From the UHGV virus genome UHGV-0138833: a stretch of DNA of 23,871 nt; one strand, written 5' to 3'. This document shows positions 775-13,823 of the stretch, in pieces. Within the stretch, counting starts at the first letter, position 1, and each line of letters starts with the position of its first letter. The notes under the pieces are model-generated. The model saw only the letters and a program-made list of their open reading frames with translations, did not search any database and was not told the DNA's origin. Both the position numbers and the translations under genes were made by a program. Source of the stretch: a virus.

Positions 775-828
775 TTACATAGTTAGCTTTACGTTGTAAA
801 GATTTTATTGTCTTTACAGTGTGGTGCG
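775..828. repeat. Composite inverted-repeat element, copy 1 of 3
   Basis: TTACATAG...CTTTAC-GTT-GTAAAG palindrome followed by TTGTCTTTACAGTGTGG. Same architecture recurs at 1379-1430 and 1528-1568. Confidence 0.5.
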
Positions 829-1430: not shown

Positions 1431-1527
1431 GAGATGTGCAGTTAAAAGTGTCAATCAGATATCATATAGTAAAATACTATATTATTTTCTATGTATCACA
1501 TACACAGCGATAAAACTGGATAAATGA

Positions 1528-1568
1528 CTTACACTGTAAAGATTGAGCTGTCTTTACAGTGTGGTTCA
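1528..1568. repeat. Composite inverted-repeat element, copy 3 of 3 (upstream of the hicA promoter)
   Basis: CTTACACTGTAAAG + CTGTCTTTACAGTGTGG. The 13-mer TCTTTACAGTGTGG is identical to that in copy 1. Confidence 0.5.
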
Positions 1569-1590
1569 TAAGTCATACGAATGAAATAAT

Positions 1591-1619
1591 TTGCCTTTGT
1601 GTGTATGCGTGTGTATAAT
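1591..1619 (+). promoter_or_regulatory. Sigma70 promoter for hicAB
   Basis: -35 TTGCCT (1591-1596), 17-bp spacer, consensus -10 TATAAT (1614-1619); GGAGG RBS at 1633-1637 before ATG 1643. Confidence 0.55.
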
Positions 1620-1642
1620 TATCCTCAGGTTAGGGAGGACAT

Positions 1643-1825
1643 ATGAAATCTGCTGACCTGTTGAAAGAACTGATAGCTGCTGGTTGCGAGTTGAAACGGC
1701 ATAAGGCAAGCAGTCACCAGATATGGTGGTCGCCAATAACAGGAAAAACTTTTCCTGTTCCTCATCCTAAAAAGGACTTGCCGCTAGGTACTGTCAGATC
1801 GATCAAAAAAATGGCGGGGATTTAA
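1643..1825 (+). CDS. hicA: HicA-family toxin (mRNA interferase, 60 aa)
   Basis: Size, position upstream of a HicB-like gene, and pattern MK.S..L...G.......SSH ... G....P.HP...L..GT.RSI.K.AGI resembling E. coli HicA as recalled from memory. Confidence 0.7.
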   Translation: MKSADLLKELIAAGCELKRHKASSHQIWWSPITGKTFPVPHPKKDLPLGTVRSIKKMAGI

Positions 1826-1849
1826 TCCCCGCCGACTTTGGAGGTAGCC

Positions 1850-2287
1850 ATGTTCTTTTCTGTTGGTGTCGAAACACCGAAAGATGATCATACAGCATAC
1901 GGTATCACCGTTCCGGTTTTTGATTGCTTTGATTTTGGATGTGTTTCTGCTGCTGATTCTCAGGCAGAAATACCCGCAATGGCGCGTGAAGCGATATTGG
2001 CAATCGTGGAAGAGATGGTAATAAGCGGTGCTCATTCTGTTGATGATATTCATGATGAAGGGTGTTTGACTTATTCCGCCAACCCAAATTATAACCACTG
2101 TGATAGCTGGTTTGTAATTGATGTTGATTTGTCAGAAATTGAGGGCAAACAACAACGTATTAATATTTCATTGCCTGATGTATTGATTCGTCGTATTGAT
2201 GGATATGTGAGAGAAAGTGGTGGCGTATACAAAGATCGTAGCCATTTTCTGGCTCAGGCGGCACGTCATGAACTTGCATATAAATAA
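1850..2287 (+). CDS. hicB: HicB-family antitoxin (about 145 aa) with C-terminal ribbon-helix-helix-like tail
   Basis: Immediately downstream of hicA; ATG 1850 with GGAGG at 1839-1843 (track start 1838 is a TTG). C-terminus RINISLPDVLIRRIDGYVRESGG...SHFLAQAARHEL looks RHH-like. Confidence 0.65.
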   Translation: MFFSVGVETPKDDHTAYGITVPVFDCFDFGCVSAADSQAEIPAMAREAILAIVEEMVISGAHSVDDIHDEGCLTYSANPNYNHCDSWFVIDVDLSEIEGKQQRINISLPDVLIRRIDGYVRESGGVYKDRSHFLAQAARHELAYK

Positions 2288-2291
2288 AACT

Positions 2292-2320
2292 ATCCCCGCG
2301 TTGTGCGGGGATTTTTTTTG
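2292..2320 (+). terminator. Rho-independent terminator after hicB
   Basis: Stem ATCCCCGC / GCGGGGAT, loop GTTGT, followed by TTTTTTTT. Confidence 0.7.
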
Positions 2321-2417
2321 ATAGCTAACCGCTCGCCGCAGTCCAGCGACCGAGCATAGCGAGCGAGCGACGAGGAAGCGGAAGATCCACCGTTGCCAGG
2401 AGAAAAGCAGGTACGCA

Positions 2418-2738
2418 CTATGCGTTCTGCCCTAGTGATGCTTTCACAAACCACGCAGCCTGAACTATTACGCCATGAATCCAGCGTAAATCGGCATCAC
2501 GATTTTCTTTTTTCATTTTTTCGCCACTTAATGCCTTGCTTACGTGACTTTTTACCAGATTTTCGTGTAATTCTTTTGCTTCTTCAATTGTGAAACCACC
2601 AGGCAAATTTGGCGCTTCTGCTTCCAGTGATGCCAGAGCAATTTCATAAGCCCGACGCTCAATATTGTCTCGGACGTCCAGGCTGCCTATACGCTCTTTG
2701 ATTTCTTTAATCAGTTCTTTGTCGGTGAACGTTGTCAT
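2418..2738 (-). CDS. Hypothetical phage protein (106 aa)
   Basis: Intact ORF with AAGGA RBS upstream of ATG 2738. Shares the motif ALASLEAEA with the protein at 3014-3457, suggesting paralogy. Confidence 0.55.
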   Translation of the reverse strand: MTTFTDKELIKEIKERIGSLDVRDNIERRAYEIALASLEAEAPNLPGGFTIEEAKELHENLVKSHVSKALSGEKMKKENRDADLRWIHGVIVQAAWFVKASLGQNA

Positions 2739-2748
2739 GTGTTAGTCC

Positions 2749-3012
2749 TTATCCTGCTGTGCTTTCAACTGATGAGGGGAATAAAATCTTTTCATCAAAT
2801 CCGGCATTCATATCATGGACAGCAACACACCAATCCATCGACGAACGATTATCAAGAGCCTCCATGATTTCATCCATGCGGCGCAGGTCATACAGGTAAA
2901 TGCTTTTATCGCCAATGGTGTAAAAACCAATTTTTTTCGGTGATGGGCAGCGATCAAGAACGTCCTGTAATTCGTTCAACCATGCCCGTTCTTTTTTTGT
3001 TAAAGTTGCCAT
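2749..3012 (-). CDS. Hypothetical phage protein (about 88 aa)
   Basis: Start taken at MATLTKK (ATG 3012) with GGAGAG RBS; abuts the stop of the upstream gene. Confidence 0.5.
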   Translation of the reverse strand: MATLTKKERAWLNELQDVLDRCPSPKKIGFYTIGDKSIYLYDLRRMDEIMEALDNRSSMDWCVAVHDMNAGFDEKILFPSSVESTAG

Positions 3013-3013
3013 A

Positions 3014-3457
3014 TCACTCTCCTTTGATGCCAATGTTTACAGCCTGACAAGCCTCTTCGAGAACCCAGTCAACAGCGTCTTTCCATGCTACGGTTTCGAC
3101 TGCCGGATTCTCATTTTTTACCTGCTCATAAAAACGCACCGCTTTAACCAGTCCTTCAGGCACTACCGGCGCTGGCAAGGCAGCGTGATAGTAGAGTGGC
3201 ATAGTTTTGTACAGTGGTTCGCCAGGACTTCCGTCAACCTGATTCCATTCTTCAACCCAGGCATCAACAACCGCTTTGCTGGTTGATACATGTTCTTCTG
3301 AATCTACATTTTGTCCTGATATACAGAACATAACTGCCTCTGCTTCCAGCGATGCCAGAGCAATTCGTGCCAGTTCCATTTGTTCGCCACGAGTAAGTCC
3401 GTTATCAAGCGGATTTTTAATGAATAATTTGATACGTTCTTTGGTTATAGCGTTCAT
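3014..3457 (-). CDS. Hypothetical phage protein (about 148 aa)
   Basis: Start taken at MNAITKER (ATG 3457) with AAGGAGAG RBS. Ends ...IKGE, as does the upstream Ea22-like gene. Confidence 0.55.
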   Translation of the reverse strand: MNAITKERIKLFIKNPLDNGLTRGEQMELARIALASLEAEAVMFCISGQNVDSEEHVSTSKAVVDAWVEEWNQVDGSPGEPLYKTMPLYYHAALPAPVVPEGLVKAVRFYEQVKNENPAVETVAWKDAVDWVLEEACQAVNIGIKGE

Positions 3458-3458
3458 C

Positions 3459-4274
3459 TCACTCTCCTTTGATGCGAATGCCAGTAGCGCGGATTGCATC
3501 GATGACTTCAGAAACTTTGTATGCCATTACCGTTTGGTAATCATCGTGAAAATCTGTTCGATGAAGCATGCTGCTACGTTCCGGGAGCGATATTTCCCGA
3601 GCATCCAGTTCCTTAACGCGCTCCTCCAGTTCGTAGACCCTGCATTGTTCTCTATCATCAATCAGATATAACCCAAGACATTCGCTTTCTACCCAACCGC
3701 CAAAATCATGATCGTAACGCTCACATGAAAACTCACCGTCACCGTCCTTTGTTGGAATGGTGTAACTATCTAATGGGCCACCATATGTCGGCACATTTCC
3801 CAATGTTGGATGCTCAATCCACATGAAAAATGCACGTCCGGTTATTGGGCAAATATCTGGCCGCCATTGGTTACGAACAGCCTTGGTTTCGGATAATTCT
3901 TCAGCGTGTTGTTTTACTTCCTCAAGCTCAACTCTCAGCTTCCCAACCGTAAGAGCAATATCCTCGTTCTTCTGGTCGCGGCGTTTGATGTATTGCTGGT
4001 TTCTTTCCAGCTCATCCAGCAGCGCCAAGACGGTAGCCGGATTGGCTGCAGCGATGAATTCAGCATTGGCCTGCTGTTCCATTTGGAAATCTTCATCGAA
4101 ACCGCTTTCAGGATGCGCTCCTTCAATTCTGCAAATGGGAATATATCCAGCAGCCTCGCGATGAATTAGCGCATCATCACCATCAAATCGGCCCTCTCCA
4201 TATTCGAGCGACCACTCACCACACGTTGCTTTCTCTGCCTTTTCACGCAGTGCCTGATAGTCAATCTTGCTCAC
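3459..4274 (-). CDS. Ea22/Ead-like early protein (271 aa)
   Basis: GTG start with AGGAGG RBS at 7-nt spacing. Coiled-coil N-terminal region and overall resemblance to the lambdoid Ea22 family (recollection, not searched). Confidence 0.5.
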   Translation of the reverse strand: MSKIDYQALREKAEKATCGEWSLEYGEGRFDGDDALIHREAAGYIPICRIEGAHPESGFDEDFQMEQQANAEFIAAANPATVLALLDELERNQQYIKRRDQKNEDIALTVGKLRVELEEVKQHAEELSETKAVRNQWRPDICPITGRAFFMWIEHPTLGNVPTYGGPLDSYTIPTKDGDGEFSCERYDHDFGGWVESECLGLYLIDDREQCRVYELEERVKELDAREISLPERSSMLHRTDFHDDYQTVMAYKVSEVIDAIRATGIRIKGE

Positions 4275-7165: not shown

Positions 7166-7822
7166 TCAGAAAATATCCCACCTGGCATCAACCACAACAC
7201 CTACTATTTCGCAATCATTGTCCATTTCTATGATTGGATATTGTGGATTAAGGGGCTTTAGAAACGCCTTTCCCATGTCAGAAATATATTTTTTGAATGT
7301 TGCTTCATTGGTCGATTTTTTTCTGGCGATGACGTAACACCCTGAAAAAACTTCTTTATCTGGGTTGACAAGGATCGACATTCCTTCAGGAAATGTTATT
7401 CCTACGGGCGAAGTCATTGAGTCTCCGTGCACTTCCAGCCAGAACCCCCTCTCACCAGCGTATTTTACAGAATGCCTCCAATTATCCTGATCATACATGT
7501 TGTAGTCATCACCAGAAGTTGCGAATAATCCTGCCTGAACCCAGTTAATTACAGGGTAAGAGTGTGCTGTGTCTCTCTGTGGGCAGCTCTTAACATTATT
7601 TTCCCAATGCTTATCTTTTTCATCTCCGTTCTGAAGCCACTGCGGTGAACACCGCAGTGCAGCTGCAACTTTAAAAAGGGTGTCACCGTTGAAACTTTTT
7701 GTAAGGCCTTGCTCGGCTTTACTGATTGCAACTCTGGTGATCCCAGCTTTTTTAGCCAACGCATCTTGTGTTAACCCAGCTTTTTGCCGTGCGTTGATGA
7801 GACGTTCACCTAAAGACTTCAT
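7166..7822 (-). CDS. CI-type prophage repressor: N-terminal HTH plus C-terminal S24 (LexA-like) autopeptidase
   Basis: Start taken at MKSLGERLINARQ (ATG 7822) with GAGAGGAGAAGAAAA RBS. HTH QKAGLTQDALAKKAGITRVAISKAEQG; Ala-Gly candidate cleavage site (VQAGLF); GDSM serine motif and downstream Lys (ARKK). Confidence 0.8.
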   Translation of the reverse strand: MKSLGERLINARQKAGLTQDALAKKAGITRVAISKAEQGLTKSFNGDTLFKVAAALRCSPQWLQNGDEKDKHWENNVKSCPQRDTAHSYPVINWVQAGLFATSGDDYNMYDQDNWRHSVKYAGERGFWLEVHGDSMTSPVGITFPEGMSILVNPDKEVFSGCYVIARKKSTNEATFKKYISDMGKAFLKPLNPQYPIIEMDNDCEIVGVVVDARWDIF

Positions 7823-7842
7823 TTTTCTTCTCCTCTCATGGC

Positions 7843-7920
7843 TGTTGATACTAAAGTAACAGAATTTCTTGATACTTTGGATTCCCGTGGTTAACATCGT
7901 TGGATAACAAAGTATCTGGT
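7843..7920. promoter_or_regulatory. Right operator cluster (OR-like): three TTGATAC-type cores
   Basis: GTTGATACTAAAG (7844-7856), CTTGATACTTTGG (7869-7881) and inverted CCAGATACTTTGT (minus strand, 7907-7919). Lies between the repressor start and the rightward genes. Confidence 0.5.
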
Positions 7921-12426: not shown

Positions 12427-13823
12427 CCAGCCAGAACACCCCGGCATGGCGTAACGATGACCTGGAAGGCGCTGTCATCGGTGCGTTTTTTCTGCGTGGG
12501 GCCGATCCGGAAGTGATGGATATTCTGGCCACACTTCCGGCGGATGTATTTTTTGTGCGTCAGTACCGGGATATTTACGCGGGGATTTGCAGACAGGCTC
12601 GCATATCCGGCGTCATTGACCCCGTACTGCTGTGCAATGAGATGCCGGAACTTGCCCCGGTGATTACCGACACCGGACGCAAAACCTGGGTGAAGTCTTC
12701 ACTGGAGCACTATGTCGCAGCGTTGCGGCGCAATGCCGCACTGCGCGATGCAGAAAAAACACTGACTGAAGCATTACAGAATTTACGTGATGCGTATACC
12801 TGTGAAGCAGCCGAGGATGCCCTGAAGGATGTGCAGAACATGATGGCCTCACTGTCGACCGGAAAGGGCGTCATTCAGCCGGTTCACATTGATGATGTCC
12901 TTCCGGAAGTGGTCGACCGTGTTGAATGCCGCAATCAGGGACTGGAGAAATCCAGGGCGCTGATGACCGGTATTGATGAACTGGACGCAAAAACGGGCGG
13001 TATGGAGCCCGGAGACCTGGTATTCATTGCCGCCCGTCCTTCGATGGGGAAAACCGAACTTGCGCTGGACATCATCGACAAGGTGACTGAGCAGGGGCAT
13101 GGCGTGCTTCTGTTCACCATGGAGATGGCGAACATCCAGATTGGTGAACGTATGGTGTCTGCTGCCGGTGGAATGCCGGTATCCCGTCTTAAGTCTGTTG
13201 CCCGTTTTGAAGATGAAGACTGGGCGCGTTTCTCGCAGGGCGTGGGACGAATGACGGGGCGTAATATCTGGATGGTGGACCAGGCAAACCTGACCATTGA
13301 TGAGATATGTGCAACCACGAAGCACCACCGGATGAAACACCCGGAAACGGCGCTGGTGGTGGTCGATTACCTCGGCCTGATTAAAACCCGCAGCACGGGG
13401 CGTCACGACCTTGCGGTGGGGGAAATCTCAAAGGGACTTAAAAGCCTGGCAAAATCCGGCGGTTTTCCGCTGATTGCTCTGAGCCAGCTCTCCCGCGGCG
13501 TGGAATCCAGACCCAATAAACGCCCAATGAACTCGGACCTGAAAAACTCCGGGGAAATCGAGGCGGATGCCGACATCATTCTGATGCTTTACAGGGATGA
13601 GGTATACAACCCGGAAACTCAGGCCAGAGGCATAGCAGAAATCAACATCACGAAACAGCGTAATGGCACGCTCGGGACCATTTACCGGCGTTTTCATAAC
13701 GGACATTTTCTGCCTGTGGACCAGGAGAGTGCCCGGGTTCTTTCCACACCCATGACGCCGGGCAATCCGCGCAGATACAGCAATAACCGCATGTCGGGCA
13801 GTAAAACGGAGCGTTTATTTTGA
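12423..13823 (+). CDS. DnaB-family replicative helicase (466 aa)
   Basis: Walker A ARPSMGKTELALDI, Walker B LVVVDYLGLI, ALSQLSR motif. Start overlaps the loader stop (ATGA). Confidence 0.8.
   Translation: MTSQNTPAWRNDDLEGAVIGAFFLRGADPEVMDILATLPADVFFVRQYRDIYAGICRQARISGVIDPVLLCNEMPELAPVITDTGRKTWVKSSLEHYVAALRRNAALRDAEKTLTEALQNLRDAYTCEAAEDALKDVQNMMASLSTGKGVIQPVHIDDVLPEVVDRVECRNQGLEKSRALMTGIDELDAKTGGMEPGDLVFIAARPSMGKTELALDIIDKVTEQGHGVLLFTMEMANIQIGERMVSAAGGMPVSRLKSVARFEDEDWARFSQGVGRMTGRNIWMVDQANLTIDEICATTKHHRMKHPETALVVVDYLGLIKTRSTGRHDLAVGEISKGLKSLAKSGGFPLIALSQLSRGVESRPNKRPMNSDLKNSGEIEADADIILMLYRDEVYNPETQARGIAEINITKQRNGTLGTIYRRFHNGHFLPVDQESARVLSTPMTPGNPRRYSNNRMSGSKTERLF

What the first reader, a model, noticed from the sequence alone, without database searches (positions are those of the whole stretch)
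1591..2320. Self-contained HicA/HicB toxin-antitoxin module with an intercistronic hairpin
hicA (60 aa) then hicB (RHH-like C-terminus) sit between a near-consensus sigma70 promoter and a strong terminator. A 9-bp-stem hairpin GGCGGGGAT-TTA-ATCCCCGCC (1814-1834) overlaps the hicA stop codon and lies just before the hicB RBS, with no U-tract, which suggests translational or processing control of the toxin:antitoxin ratio. Composite repeat copy 3 lies just upstream of the promoter, so the module may be co-regulated with the other accessory genes.
Basis: partly seen in the sequence, partly recalled or inferred. Interest (0 to 1): 0.45.

Follow-up and report, generated by a model that had tools for sequence, protein, structure and literature searches.

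The report
Known HicAB module with internal terminator
This is the HicA/HicB toxin-antitoxin operon of IncI2 conjugative plasmids, and its hairpin between the two genes was already shown in 2025 to stop most transcription after the toxin gene, so the finding is real but already published.

Summary
The sequence features are all present. They comprise hicA (1643-1825), hicB (1850-2287), a conserved sigma-70 promoter (1591-1619), a strong terminator (2292-2319) and a perfect 9-bp hairpin over the hicA stop codon.

The window is an IncI2 plasmid. Bases 1625-2486 are 100% identical to pHNSHP45 (p45), and both proteins are identical to p45's. Lin et al. (NAR 2025, PMC11878559) studied exactly this operon on p45:
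- HicA is toxic and HicB neutralises it.
- They call the intergenic hairpin plus UUU a "noncanonical intrinsic terminator". It makes hicA mRNA about 10-fold more abundant than hicB mRNA and also lowers HicB protein.
- Deleting the hairpin abolishes the plasmid-competition advantage.
- Phage resistance was unaffected.

Modest additions from this work:
- The hairpin is kept, with compensatory changes, in 37 of 44 related loci. These span Enterobacterales, Gilliamella/Orbaceae, Vibrio and Rheinheimera, on chromosomes as well as plasmids.
- On the minus strand the hairpin reads as a canonical terminator.
- The promoter carries conserved GTGTGTAT repeats.

Verdict: already known, low interest.

The parts
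1515..1562 (.). Composite repeat copy 3. It is an imperfect inverted repeat built on TTACACTGTAAAG / CTTTACAGTGT and is adjacent to the module rather than shown to be part of it.
   Evidence: Direct-repeat family D1 (775-822, 1376-1423, 1515-1562) and inverted repeat I13. Motif hits number 9 against 1.7 expected. Further copies lie at cassette borders in other IncI2 plasmids.
1591..1619 (+). Sigma-70 promoter: TTGCCT (1591-1596), 17-nt spacer, TATAAT (1614-1619). The short leader puts the expected start about 6-9 nt before the hicA Shine-Dalgarno.
   Evidence: Matches 10 of 12 consensus positions. The -10 hexamer and its surroundings are conserved in nearly all of about 43 related loci. p45 has TTGCTT at the -35 because of a SNP at 1595.
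1599..1616 (+). Two direct copies of GTGTGTAT (1599-1606 and 1609-1616), 10 bp start to start. The second overlaps the -10. This is a probable HicB operator (inferred).
   Evidence: GTGTGTAT-N2-3-GTGTGTATAAT is conserved across genera. Some loci add an inverted ATACACAC copy upstream. HicB self-repression of the promoter is reported in PMC11878559.
1634..1638 (+). hicA Shine-Dalgarno GGAGG, 4 nt before the ATG.
   Evidence: Sequence. Conserved as CAGGTTAGG(G)AGG. The paper notes strong GGAGG ribosome-binding sites for both genes.
1643..1825 (+). hicA, encoding the 60-aa HicA toxin (an mRNA interferase with a dsRBD-like fold). The conserved Ser-His motif is at S24-H25.
   Evidence: PF07927, E 1.1e-15, 58 bits. 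PDB hits 4C26 and 6G26 at E about 2e-8 and 4P78_C at 4.5e-5. Identical to WP_000833470.1 of p45. Toxicity shown in PMC11878559.
1805..1811 (+). A7 run encoding Lys-Lys of the HicA C-terminus. On the minus strand it is the U-tract following the hairpin.
   Evidence: The minus-strand terminator call is GGCGGGGATTAAATCCCCGCC followed by ATTTTTTTGA. The A-run is conserved in homologs.
1813..1833 (+). Internal hairpin GGCGGGGAT-TTA-ATCCCCGCC. It is a perfect 9-bp stem with 7 G/C pairs and overlaps the hicA stop codon (1823-1825). It is the 'hicA-specific noncanonical intrinsic terminator' of HicA^T B.
   Evidence: Identical to p45. Function shown in PMC11878559. Conserved in 37 of 44 distinct loci, with variable loop and stop codon and with compensatory stem changes.
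1837..1839 (+). Short UUU tract, 3 nt after the stem.
   Evidence: Sequence. Described as 'short U tract (n = 3)' in PMC11878559. Homologs carry 2-5 T in the 8 nt after the stem, for example TTTTC and TTTTT in Pectobacterium and Winslowiella.
1840..1844 (+). hicB Shine-Dalgarno GGAGG, 5 nt before the ATG.
   Evidence: Sequence. Conserved in the alignment.
1850..2287 (+). hicB, encoding the 145-aa HicB antitoxin. It has an N-terminal HicB-like domain and a C-terminal DNA-binding region that is taken to be ribbon-helix-helix (about residues 102-142).
   Evidence: PF15919, E 1.3e-26. PDB hit 6G1N at 1.1e-11 (single sequence) or 1.1e-12 (profile), and 4P78_A at 6.8e-9, both aligned through the C-terminal region. 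Weak NikR ribbon-helix-helix hits over residues 102-143. Identical to WP_000466318.1 of p45.
2292..2319 (+). Operon-end intrinsic terminator ATCCCCGC-GTTGT-GCGGGGAT followed by a T run. It is also called on the minus strand, so it is bidirectional between convergent units. It is built from the same 8-mers as the internal hairpin.
   Evidence: GCGGGGAT occurs 6 times in the window against 0.66 expected. It is present in IncI2 plasmids that lack hicAB, so it is backbone or a retained remnant.

Best explanation
This is the HicA^T B type II toxin-antitoxin operon of IncI2 conjugative plasmids. A conserved promoter, probably repressed by HicB through GTGTGTAT repeats, transcribes hicA and then hicB. 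HicA is an RNase-type toxin. HicB binds and neutralises it and carries a C-terminal DNA-binding domain. The G/C-rich hairpin over the hicA stop codon, with the short UUU after it, acts as a leaky, non-canonical intrinsic terminator. Most transcripts end after hicA and a minority read through into hicB, ending at the strong terminator at 2292-2319. Where the hairpin forms in read-through mRNA, it sits 6 nt upstream of the hicB ribosome-binding site and further lowers HicB synthesis. The result is an unusually high toxin:antitoxin ratio, which makes the plasmid strongly addictive in plasmid-plasmid competition. What is shown experimentally, on identical sequence, is toxicity, neutralisation, complex formation, the mRNA imbalance, the effect of deleting the hairpin and the competition phenotype. 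Two things are inferred: that the imbalance arises by termination itself, and that the GTGTGTAT repeats are the HicB operator.
For: Family assignment rests. Window bases 1625-2486 are identical to pHNSHP45, and the proteins have the same RefSeq accessions. PMC11878559 reports the following for p45. HicA is toxic and bacteriostatic, HicB neutralises it, and the two form a complex. The ORFs are 24 bp apart, as here (1826-1849). RNA-seq and qRT-PCR show hicA mRNA about 10-fold above hicB with a sharp drop after hicA. A 13-bp deletion in the hairpin equalises the two. HicB-FLAG protein rises without the hairpin. The deletion mutant loses the competition advantage. Comparative support obtained here: the hairpin is identical in homologs only 72-76% identical overall. 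It is retained as a stem of at least 7 bp in 37 of 44 distinct loci from several gammaproteobacterial orders, while the loop, the Ile codon third base and the stop codon (TAA, TGA or TAG) vary. There are compensatory pairs. A synonymous GGG-to-GGC change is matched by C-to-G in the non-coding arm in Vibrio and Rheinheimera. A-U becomes C-G in Gilliamella. G-C becomes A-U in Rheinheimera and Rosenbergiella. A short T-rich stretch follows the stem in most loci, and 4-5 T directly abut it in Pectobacterium and Winslowiella.
Against: The hairpin lacks the 7-8 nt U-tract of a canonical terminator, and the plus-strand scan does not call it. The paper's text contains no in vitro transcription, 3'-end mapping or Northern blot. 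Termination is therefore not separated from differential RNA stability or processing. The formal covariation count on a model-fitted alignment is only modest: 87.5% of cells are paired, 3 pairs have double changes, and 21 of 500 shuffles reach the covariation score. The stem is mostly conserved rather than covarying, and its 5' arm is also constrained by the Ala-Gly-Ile coding sequence. Seven of 44 loci have lost or weakened the hairpin, and most of these still have an intact hicA.
Confidence: 0.85

Rival explanations
1. The hairpin works mainly after transcription. It would act as a 3' stabiliser or processing boundary that protects the hicA segment from 3' exonucleases after cleavage, and as a structure next to the hicB ribosome-binding site that limits independent HicB translation. 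On this view there is little true termination.
For: There is no canonical U-tract on the plus strand. The hairpin ends 6 nt before the hicB Shine-Dalgarno. HicB protein rises when the hairpin is deleted (PMC11878559). The published evidence consists of steady-state RNA levels and a deletion, and the text has no in vitro termination assay or 3'-end mapping. That evidence fits this model as well as it fits termination.
Against: A sharp RNA-seq drop immediately after hicA and the UUU tract fit termination. In Pectobacterium and Winslowiella homologs 4-5 U directly follow the stem, which is the terminator arrangement. The rise in HicB protein could simply follow from more hicB mRNA.
Confidence: 0.15
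2. The element is primarily, or additionally, a terminator for minus-strand transcription. Antisense read-through from the convergent leftward genes (2418 onward), or from within hicB, would be stopped before it reaches hicA and the promoter. The hairpin would then be a bidirectional insulator.
For: On the minus strand the hairpin is followed by ATTTTTTT and is called as a canonical terminator. The minus-strand fold is about -18.9 kcal/mol. The A-run is conserved in nearly all homologs. The best sub-threshold Rfam hit is on the minus strand at 1805-1880, at 28 bits against a gathering score of 46.
Against: The A-run encodes the conserved Lys-Lys of HicA using the preferred AAA codon, so it needs no further explanation. 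The hairpin is conserved in loci whose downstream genes have different orientations. No minus-strand promoter is predicted or conserved inside hicB. Antisense termination cannot explain hicA mRNA exceeding hicB mRNA.
Confidence: 0.07
3. The palindrome acts at the DNA level, either as a protein-binding site such as a second HicB operator or as a recombination or deletion hotspot. On this view it is not an RNA structure.
For: It is a perfect 9-bp inverted repeat. In the pHAB-6 lineage of IncI2 plasmids, the deletion that removed hicA and its promoter ends in the hairpin loop. The same 8-mers form the terminal terminator 460 bp away.
Against: Compensatory changes preserve pairing rather than sequence. 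The conserved operator-like repeats are at the promoter and have an unrelated sequence. The shared arms are confined to the IncI2/IncX4-like context, apart from a 7-mer in one Klebsiella plasmid. RNA-level effects of the deletion are documented.
Confidence: 0.03

Closest known systems
HicA^T B of IncI2 plasmid pHNSHP45 (Lin et al., Nucleic Acids Res 2025, gkaf125; PMC11878559)
   Same: Window bases 1625-2486 are 100% identical to pHNSHP45. This stretch covers both genes, the 24-bp spacer, the hairpin, the UUU tract and the terminal terminator. The protein accessions are the same (WP_000833470.1 and WP_000466318.1) and the plasmid type is the same.
   Different: There are only a few SNPs upstream, at 1595 in the -35 hexamer and at 1601, 1621, 1623 and 1624. 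The window's plasmid shows no mcr-1 in the stretch examined, where the relaxase gene is followed directly by backbone genes.
Burkholderia pseudomallei HicAB (PDB 4C26, 6G1N, 6G26)
   Same: Same two-protein architecture. HicA is about 60 aa and shares the VPHPKKDLP.GTV.SI.K.AG motif. HicB aligns over residues 8-140, including the C-terminal region.
   Different: Sequence similarity is distant (E 1e-8 to 1e-12). An internal hairpin was not examined for that locus here.
Yersinia pestis HicA3/HicB3 (PDB 4P78, 4P7D)
   Same: Toxin-first operon. HicA carries the G-S-H motif that aligns with S24-H25 here. The C-terminal part of HicB aligns through residue 142.
   Different: More distant (E 4.5e-5 for HicA, 6.8e-9 for the HicB profile).
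HicA^O B of IncX4 plasmids and of some IncI2 plasmids
   Same: Same family names, and also plasmid-borne. A copy with an 82-aa HicA and a 115-aa HicB lies upstream in pHAB-6-type IncI2 plasmids.
   Different: The ORFs overlap and there is no internal hairpin. hicA and hicB mRNA levels are equal, protein identity is below 26% and the competition effect is weak (PMC11878559).
E. coli K-12 hicAB (two-promoter regulation; cited as reference 56 in PMC11878559)
   Same: Toxin-first operon. A HicB-repressed promoter lies close to the hicA ribosome-binding site. The short leader predicted here is comparable.
   Different: About 20% protein identity according to the paper. The published K-12 mechanism favours the antitoxin, whereas the hairpin here favours the toxin.
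Canonical Rho-independent (intrinsic) terminators
   Same: G/C-rich stem-loop followed by U residues. Steady-state RNA drops after it.
   Different: Only 3 U residues, and they are separated from the stem by 3 nt. The element lies inside an operon, overlaps a stop codon and is leaky.

Membership tests
HicA toxin (Pfam PF07927, COG1724) | Sequence match to the HicA profile above the curated cut-off, over the full small (about 60 aa) protein | tested here: met
   58 bits against a cut-off of 27, E 1.1e-15, residues 4-60 on profile positions 2-58 of 58. PDB HicA chains match at E 1.7e-8 to 4.5e-5.
HicA toxin (Pfam PF07927, COG1724) | Conserved catalytic histidine in the G/S-S-H motif of strand 2 | tested here: met
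   S24-H25 (ASSHQIWW) aligns with the GSH motif of Y. pestis HicA3 and with the histidine cluster of B. pseudomallei HicA. The motif is GSHQIWW or GSHH in all intact homologs. That this histidine is catalytic comes from established knowledge of the family and was not tested here.
HicA toxin (Pfam PF07927, COG1724) | Growth inhibition when expressed alone, relieved by the cognate HicB | not testable with these tools
   Reported for the identical protein from p45 (PMC11878559).
HicB antitoxin (Pfam PF15919 plus a C-terminal DNA-binding domain) | N-terminal HicB-like domain matching the profile above the cut-off | tested here: met
   93.6 bits against a cut-off of 27, E 1.3e-26, residues 7-138. 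PDB 6G1N at 1.1e-12 and 4P78 at 6.8e-9 with the profile.
HicB antitoxin (Pfam PF15919 plus a C-terminal DNA-binding domain) | C-terminal ribbon-helix-helix domain | tested here: met
   Residues about 102-142 (QRINISLPDVLIRRIDGYV...RSHFLAQAARHEL) align with the C-terminal region of 6G1N and 4P78. There are weak NikR ribbon-helix-helix hits. The paper assigns COG0864. That this region of 6G1N and 4P78 is a ribbon-helix-helix comes from established knowledge. No structure was predicted here.
Type II toxin-antitoxin operon | Adjacent co-oriented genes with their own promoter and terminator; antitoxin binds toxin and autoregulates | tested here: met
   Gene order, the 24-bp spacer, the promoter and the terminator are all present. 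Complex formation and self-repression are reported in PMC11878559 and were not testable here.
HicA^T B subfamily (internal hicA-specific terminator) | G/C-rich hairpin with a short U tract in the hicA-hicB intergenic region, with ORFs that do not overlap | tested here: met
   Hairpin at 1813-1833, UUU at 1837-1839 and a 24-bp spacer. The sequence is identical to the p45 type member.
Canonical intrinsic (Rho-independent) terminator | Stable G/C-rich stem-loop | tested here: met
   Perfect 9-bp stem with 7 G/C pairs, at -16.6 to -18.1 kcal/mol.
Canonical intrinsic (Rho-independent) terminator | U-tract of about 7-8 nt immediately after the stem | tested here: not met
   The plus strand reads GACUUUGG after the stem, and the scan does not call it. 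The minus strand does meet the criterion, with AUUUUUUU. This is why the paper labels it 'noncanonical'.
Canonical intrinsic (Rho-independent) terminator | Factor-independent release of RNA polymerase at the site | not testable with these tools
   Only in vivo steady-state RNA and a deletion mutant are published. The paper's text contains no in vitro transcription or 3'-end mapping.

The most novel reading that the evidence does not exclude
The internal hairpin may not be an adaptation of IncI2 resistance plasmids. It could instead be the ancestral design of a whole HicAB clade. It is maintained by compensatory substitutions in chromosomal and plasmid hicAB loci of Enterobacterales, Gilliamella/Orbaceae, Vibrio and Rheinheimera, always together with the same GTGTGTAT-repeat promoter. 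If so, producing more toxin than antitoxin transcript would be the default for this clade. Because of its conserved upstream A-run, the element would also serve as a canonical terminator for antisense transcription, making it a bidirectional attenuator embedded in a coding-sequence end.
Probability: 0.35. Interest if true: 0.35.

Novelty: already known. Interest (0 to 1): 0.1.

Why it matters
The module matters biologically. [quoted passage not shown] It does this through an unusual regulatory design in which an internal terminator favours the toxin. That was established experimentally on identical sequence in 2025, so re-finding it here adds no new biology. The only increments are comparative. 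The hairpin and the promoter repeats are conserved far beyond IncI2 and IncX4 plasmids, including in chromosomes. The published evidence also does not yet separate true termination from RNA-stability effects.

Tried and rejected
1. Phage origin. A megablast of the region against 50,697 phage records found nothing. The region is plasmid-borne: 414 of 419 E. coli matches are on plasmids, and 605 of 624 PLSDB hits are conjugative plasmids.

2. Long-range pairing or a shared origin of the internal and terminal hairpins. The same 8-mers are used in both. However, this holds only in the IncI2/IncX4-like context and not in the other loci examined, apart from a 7-mer match in one Klebsiella plasmid. 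I treat it as local history or chance.

3. An antisense small RNA ending at the minus-strand terminator and covering the hicB start. There is only a TATGAT without a -35 hexamer at about 1886-1891, it is not conserved in homologs, and the scan calls no promoter there. The Rfam hit is sub-threshold.

4. Known RNA families. Nothing reaches a gathering score in 1300-2500.

5. Anti-phage defence models. PADLOC gives no hit for HicA, HicB or the two flanking small proteins.

6. Formal covariation on a covariance-model alignment. The signal is weak, because the model misaligns the shifted or bulged stems of Vibrio, Gilliamella and Rheinheimera. I relied instead on per-locus folding.

7. A link between hairpin loss and hicA decay. 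None was found. Loci with a frameshifted hicA keep a hairpin of at least 9 bp, and most loci with a lost or weakened hairpin have an intact hicA.

Full report
**1. Observation**

Reading the sequence and listing ORFs confirms two co-oriented genes. hicA is 1643-1825 (60 aa). hicB is 1850-2287 (145 aa from the ATG; the mechanical ORF begins at a TTG at 1838).

The consensus scan finds TTGCCT, a 17-nt spacer and TATAAT at 1591-1619, matching 10 of 12 positions. It also finds a strong terminator at 2292-2312 followed by a T run.

The hicA stop TAA (1823-1825) covers the end of the loop and the first base of the 3' arm. GGAGG of hicB follows at 1840-1844.

The hairpin folds at -16.6 to -18.1 kcal/mol. 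Perfect stems of this kind occur 3 times in the window, against 0.065 per shuffle. In an 81-nt context the fold z-score is only -1.8, so it is the local stem that stands out rather than the wider region.

On the plus strand the stem is followed by GACUUUGG and is not called as a terminator. On the minus strand it is followed by AUUUUUUU and is called as a canonical one.

**2. What it is**

Pfam assigns HicA_toxin (E 1.1e-15) and HicB_lk_antitox (E 1.3e-26). NCBIfam adds only weak NikR ribbon-helix-helix hits over HicB residues 102-143.

Among solved structures, HicA matches Burkholderia pseudomallei HicA (4C26, 6G26) and Yersinia HicA3 (4P78_C). S24-H25 of this HicA aligns with their Ser-His motif. 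HicB matches 6G1N and 4P78_A through its C-terminal region.

The region has no phage match. It is 100% identical to many IncI2 conjugative plasmids of about 56-65 kb from E. coli and Salmonella, where RefSeq annotates both genes as HicA and HicB. Annotated CDS coordinates in plasmid pH6437-2 coincide with the window's ORFs.

The window also holds the stbB-mobC/relaxase region, the topoisomerase gene, an integrase gene next to the shufflon pilV adhesin gene, and type IV pilus genes. hicAB lies about 3.3 kb from the stbB-mobC intergenic region, on the side away from the relaxase gene.

**3. It is already characterised**

A literature search found Lin et al., Nucleic Acids Res 2025, gkaf125 (PMC11878559). 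That paper studies the hicAB operon of the IncI2 plasmid pHNSHP45 (p45).

I fetched p45 and compared it with the window. hicA and hicB are found exactly, and window bases 1625-2486 have no mismatch. Within about 50 bp upstream there are only five SNPs (1595, 1601, 1621, 1623, 1624). The protein accessions are the same.

The paper reports the following:
- HicA is a bacteriostatic toxin, HicB neutralises it, and the two form a complex.
- The ORFs are 24 bp apart, as here.
- RNA-seq and qRT-PCR show about 10-fold more hicA than hicB mRNA, with a sharp drop after hicA.
- A 13-bp deletion in the hairpin equalises the two mRNAs, raises HicB protein, reduces toxicity and abolishes the advantage in plasmid-plasmid competition.
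- HicB is stable and represses the promoter.
- Deleting the module did not alter resistance to lytic phages.
- The subfamily is named HicA^T B. HicA^O B is a second subfamily with overlapping ORFs and no hairpin.

**4.

The identification and the idea of control over the toxin:antitoxin ratio are right. The experiments instead point to premature termination at a short U-tract, with reduced HicB protein as a secondary effect. The proposed phage-defence test has been done and was negative. PADLOC has no model matching either protein.

**5. What this analysis adds**

(a) Conservation of the hairpin. Plasmid homologs only 72-76% identical overall (Salmonella, Klebsiella) carry an identical hairpin. 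A Vibrio plasmid has CGCGGGC-AUCUA-GCCCGCG, which contains two compensatory pairs.

A scan of one genome per species returned 45 loci. By per-locus folding, 37 of 44 distinct loci keep a stem of at least 7 bp over the hicA stop codon. The loop, the third base of the Ile codon and the stop codon (TAA, TGA or TAG) vary while the arms are kept.

The compensatory changes include:
- GGG to GGC (synonymous Gly), matched by C to G in the non-coding arm, in Vibrio and Rheinheimera;
- A-U to C-G in Gilliamella;
- G-C to A-U in Rheinheimera and Rosenbergiella;
- G-U wobbles in Brenneria.

The loci include complete chromosomes (Xenorhabdus, Pectobacterium) and megabase-size contigs. The feature is therefore not specific to IncI2 and IncX4 plasmids, which was the scope of the paper's survey.

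A covariance-model alignment gave only modest formal covariation: 87.5% of cells paired, 3 pairs with double changes, and 21 of 500 shuffles reaching the score. This is partly because the shifted or bulged stems are misaligned. The stem is mostly conserved, and its 5' arm is also constrained by coding.

(b) The tail after the stem. The 8 nt after the stem hold 2-5 T in most loci. In Pectobacterium and Winslowiella, 4-5 T abut the stem directly. This fits a terminator.

(c) The promoter. GTGTGTAT-N2-3-GTGTGTATAAT-N7-CAGGTTAGG(G)AGG is conserved in almost all loci. Some loci have an extra inverted ATACACAC copy upstream. This supports the promoter call and suggests the HicB operator, but that is an inference.

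(d) Limits of the published evidence. The paper's text contains no in vitro transcription, 3'-end mapping, Northern blot or discussion of antisense transcription. True termination is therefore not formally separated from an RNA-stability effect. The canonical minus-strand terminator reading also remains unaddressed.

**6. Rivals**

- A post-transcriptional role (3' stabiliser plus occlusion near the ribosome-binding site) fits the steady-state data. It is disfavoured by the sharp drop in RNA and by the U-rich tails in homologs.
- A primary antisense-terminator role is unlikely. The A-run encodes conserved Lys-Lys, the hairpin is conserved in different downstream contexts, and no conserved antisense promoter exists.
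- A DNA-level role is contradicted by changes that preserve pairing rather than sequence.

**7. Verdict**

The finding is real, correctly identified and biologically meaningful. It is also already known, down to the hairpin's function on identical sequence. Interest is low, and the comparative extension is a modest increment.

Noticed in passing
window 1814-1821 and 1825-1832 versus 2292-2299 and 2305-2312: The internal hairpin and the operon-end terminator are built from the same 8-mer pair, GCGGGGAT and ATCCCCGC. The 8-mer occurs 6 times in the window against 0.66 expected. Apart from a 7-mer match downstream of hicB in one Klebsiella plasmid (L007), the sharing is seen only in the IncI2/IncX4-like context and not in the other loci, so it is probably local history or chance rather than a functional long-range pairing.
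   Followed up: partly
L002 (pHAB-6) 2280-3090 and L004; compare window 1563-1824 and 2140-2290: A second lineage of IncI2 plasmids has lost the promoter and hicA through a deletion that runs from just after composite repeat copy 3 into the hairpin loop. It keeps a mutated 3' arm (ATCACTGCC) and a truncated orphan hicB whose C-terminal part is replaced by a segment holding another composite repeat. These plasmids carry a different hicAB (82-aa and 115-aa proteins with overlapping ORFs) about 1 kb upstream.
   Followed up: partly
window 775-822, 1376-1423, 1515-1562; L054 (p45) 7072, 7795-7879, 11840, 12846-12999: The composite repeats are made of CTTTAC-N3-GTAAAG palindromes plus a TGTCTTTACAGTGT unit. 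They sit in intergenic regions and at cassette borders of the IncI2 accessory region. They also cluster just upstream of the parA-like (MipZ-annotated) gene of p45. This suggests binding sites for a plasmid-encoded DNA-binding protein, either a partition protein or a global regulator. The binding protein was not identified.
   Followed up: partly
window 1599-1616 and the equivalent position in about 40 loci (L005-L053): Two direct GTGTGTAT repeats 10 bp apart overlap the -10 hexamer and are conserved across genera. Some loci add an inverted ATACACAC copy upstream. This is a likely HicB operator that the paper's text does not describe.
   Followed up: partly
L010, L011, L030, L037, L049, L053 (about 200 nt upstream of hicB in each): Several loci have a frameshifted or interrupted hicA yet keep a hairpin of at least 9 bp, perfect or with G-U pairs. 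Conversely, L020, L023, L027 and L040 have an intact hicA but a degraded hairpin. Hairpin loss and toxin decay are therefore not simply linked.
   Followed up: partly
window 2418-2738 (-) and 3014-3499 (-); repeats 2614-2643/3336-3365 and 2992-3035/3437-3480: The small leftward genes downstream of hicAB share repeated segments: the peptide motif IALASLEAEA and similar ribosome-binding-site and start regions. They therefore look like paralogous cassettes of unknown function.
   Followed up: no
window 1805-1880, minus strand: There is a sub-threshold Rfam match to Burkholderia sRNA ncS025 (28 bits against a gathering score of 46). It reflects the terminator-like shape of the hairpin on the minus strand. 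No conserved promoter for such an antisense RNA was found.
   Followed up: yes
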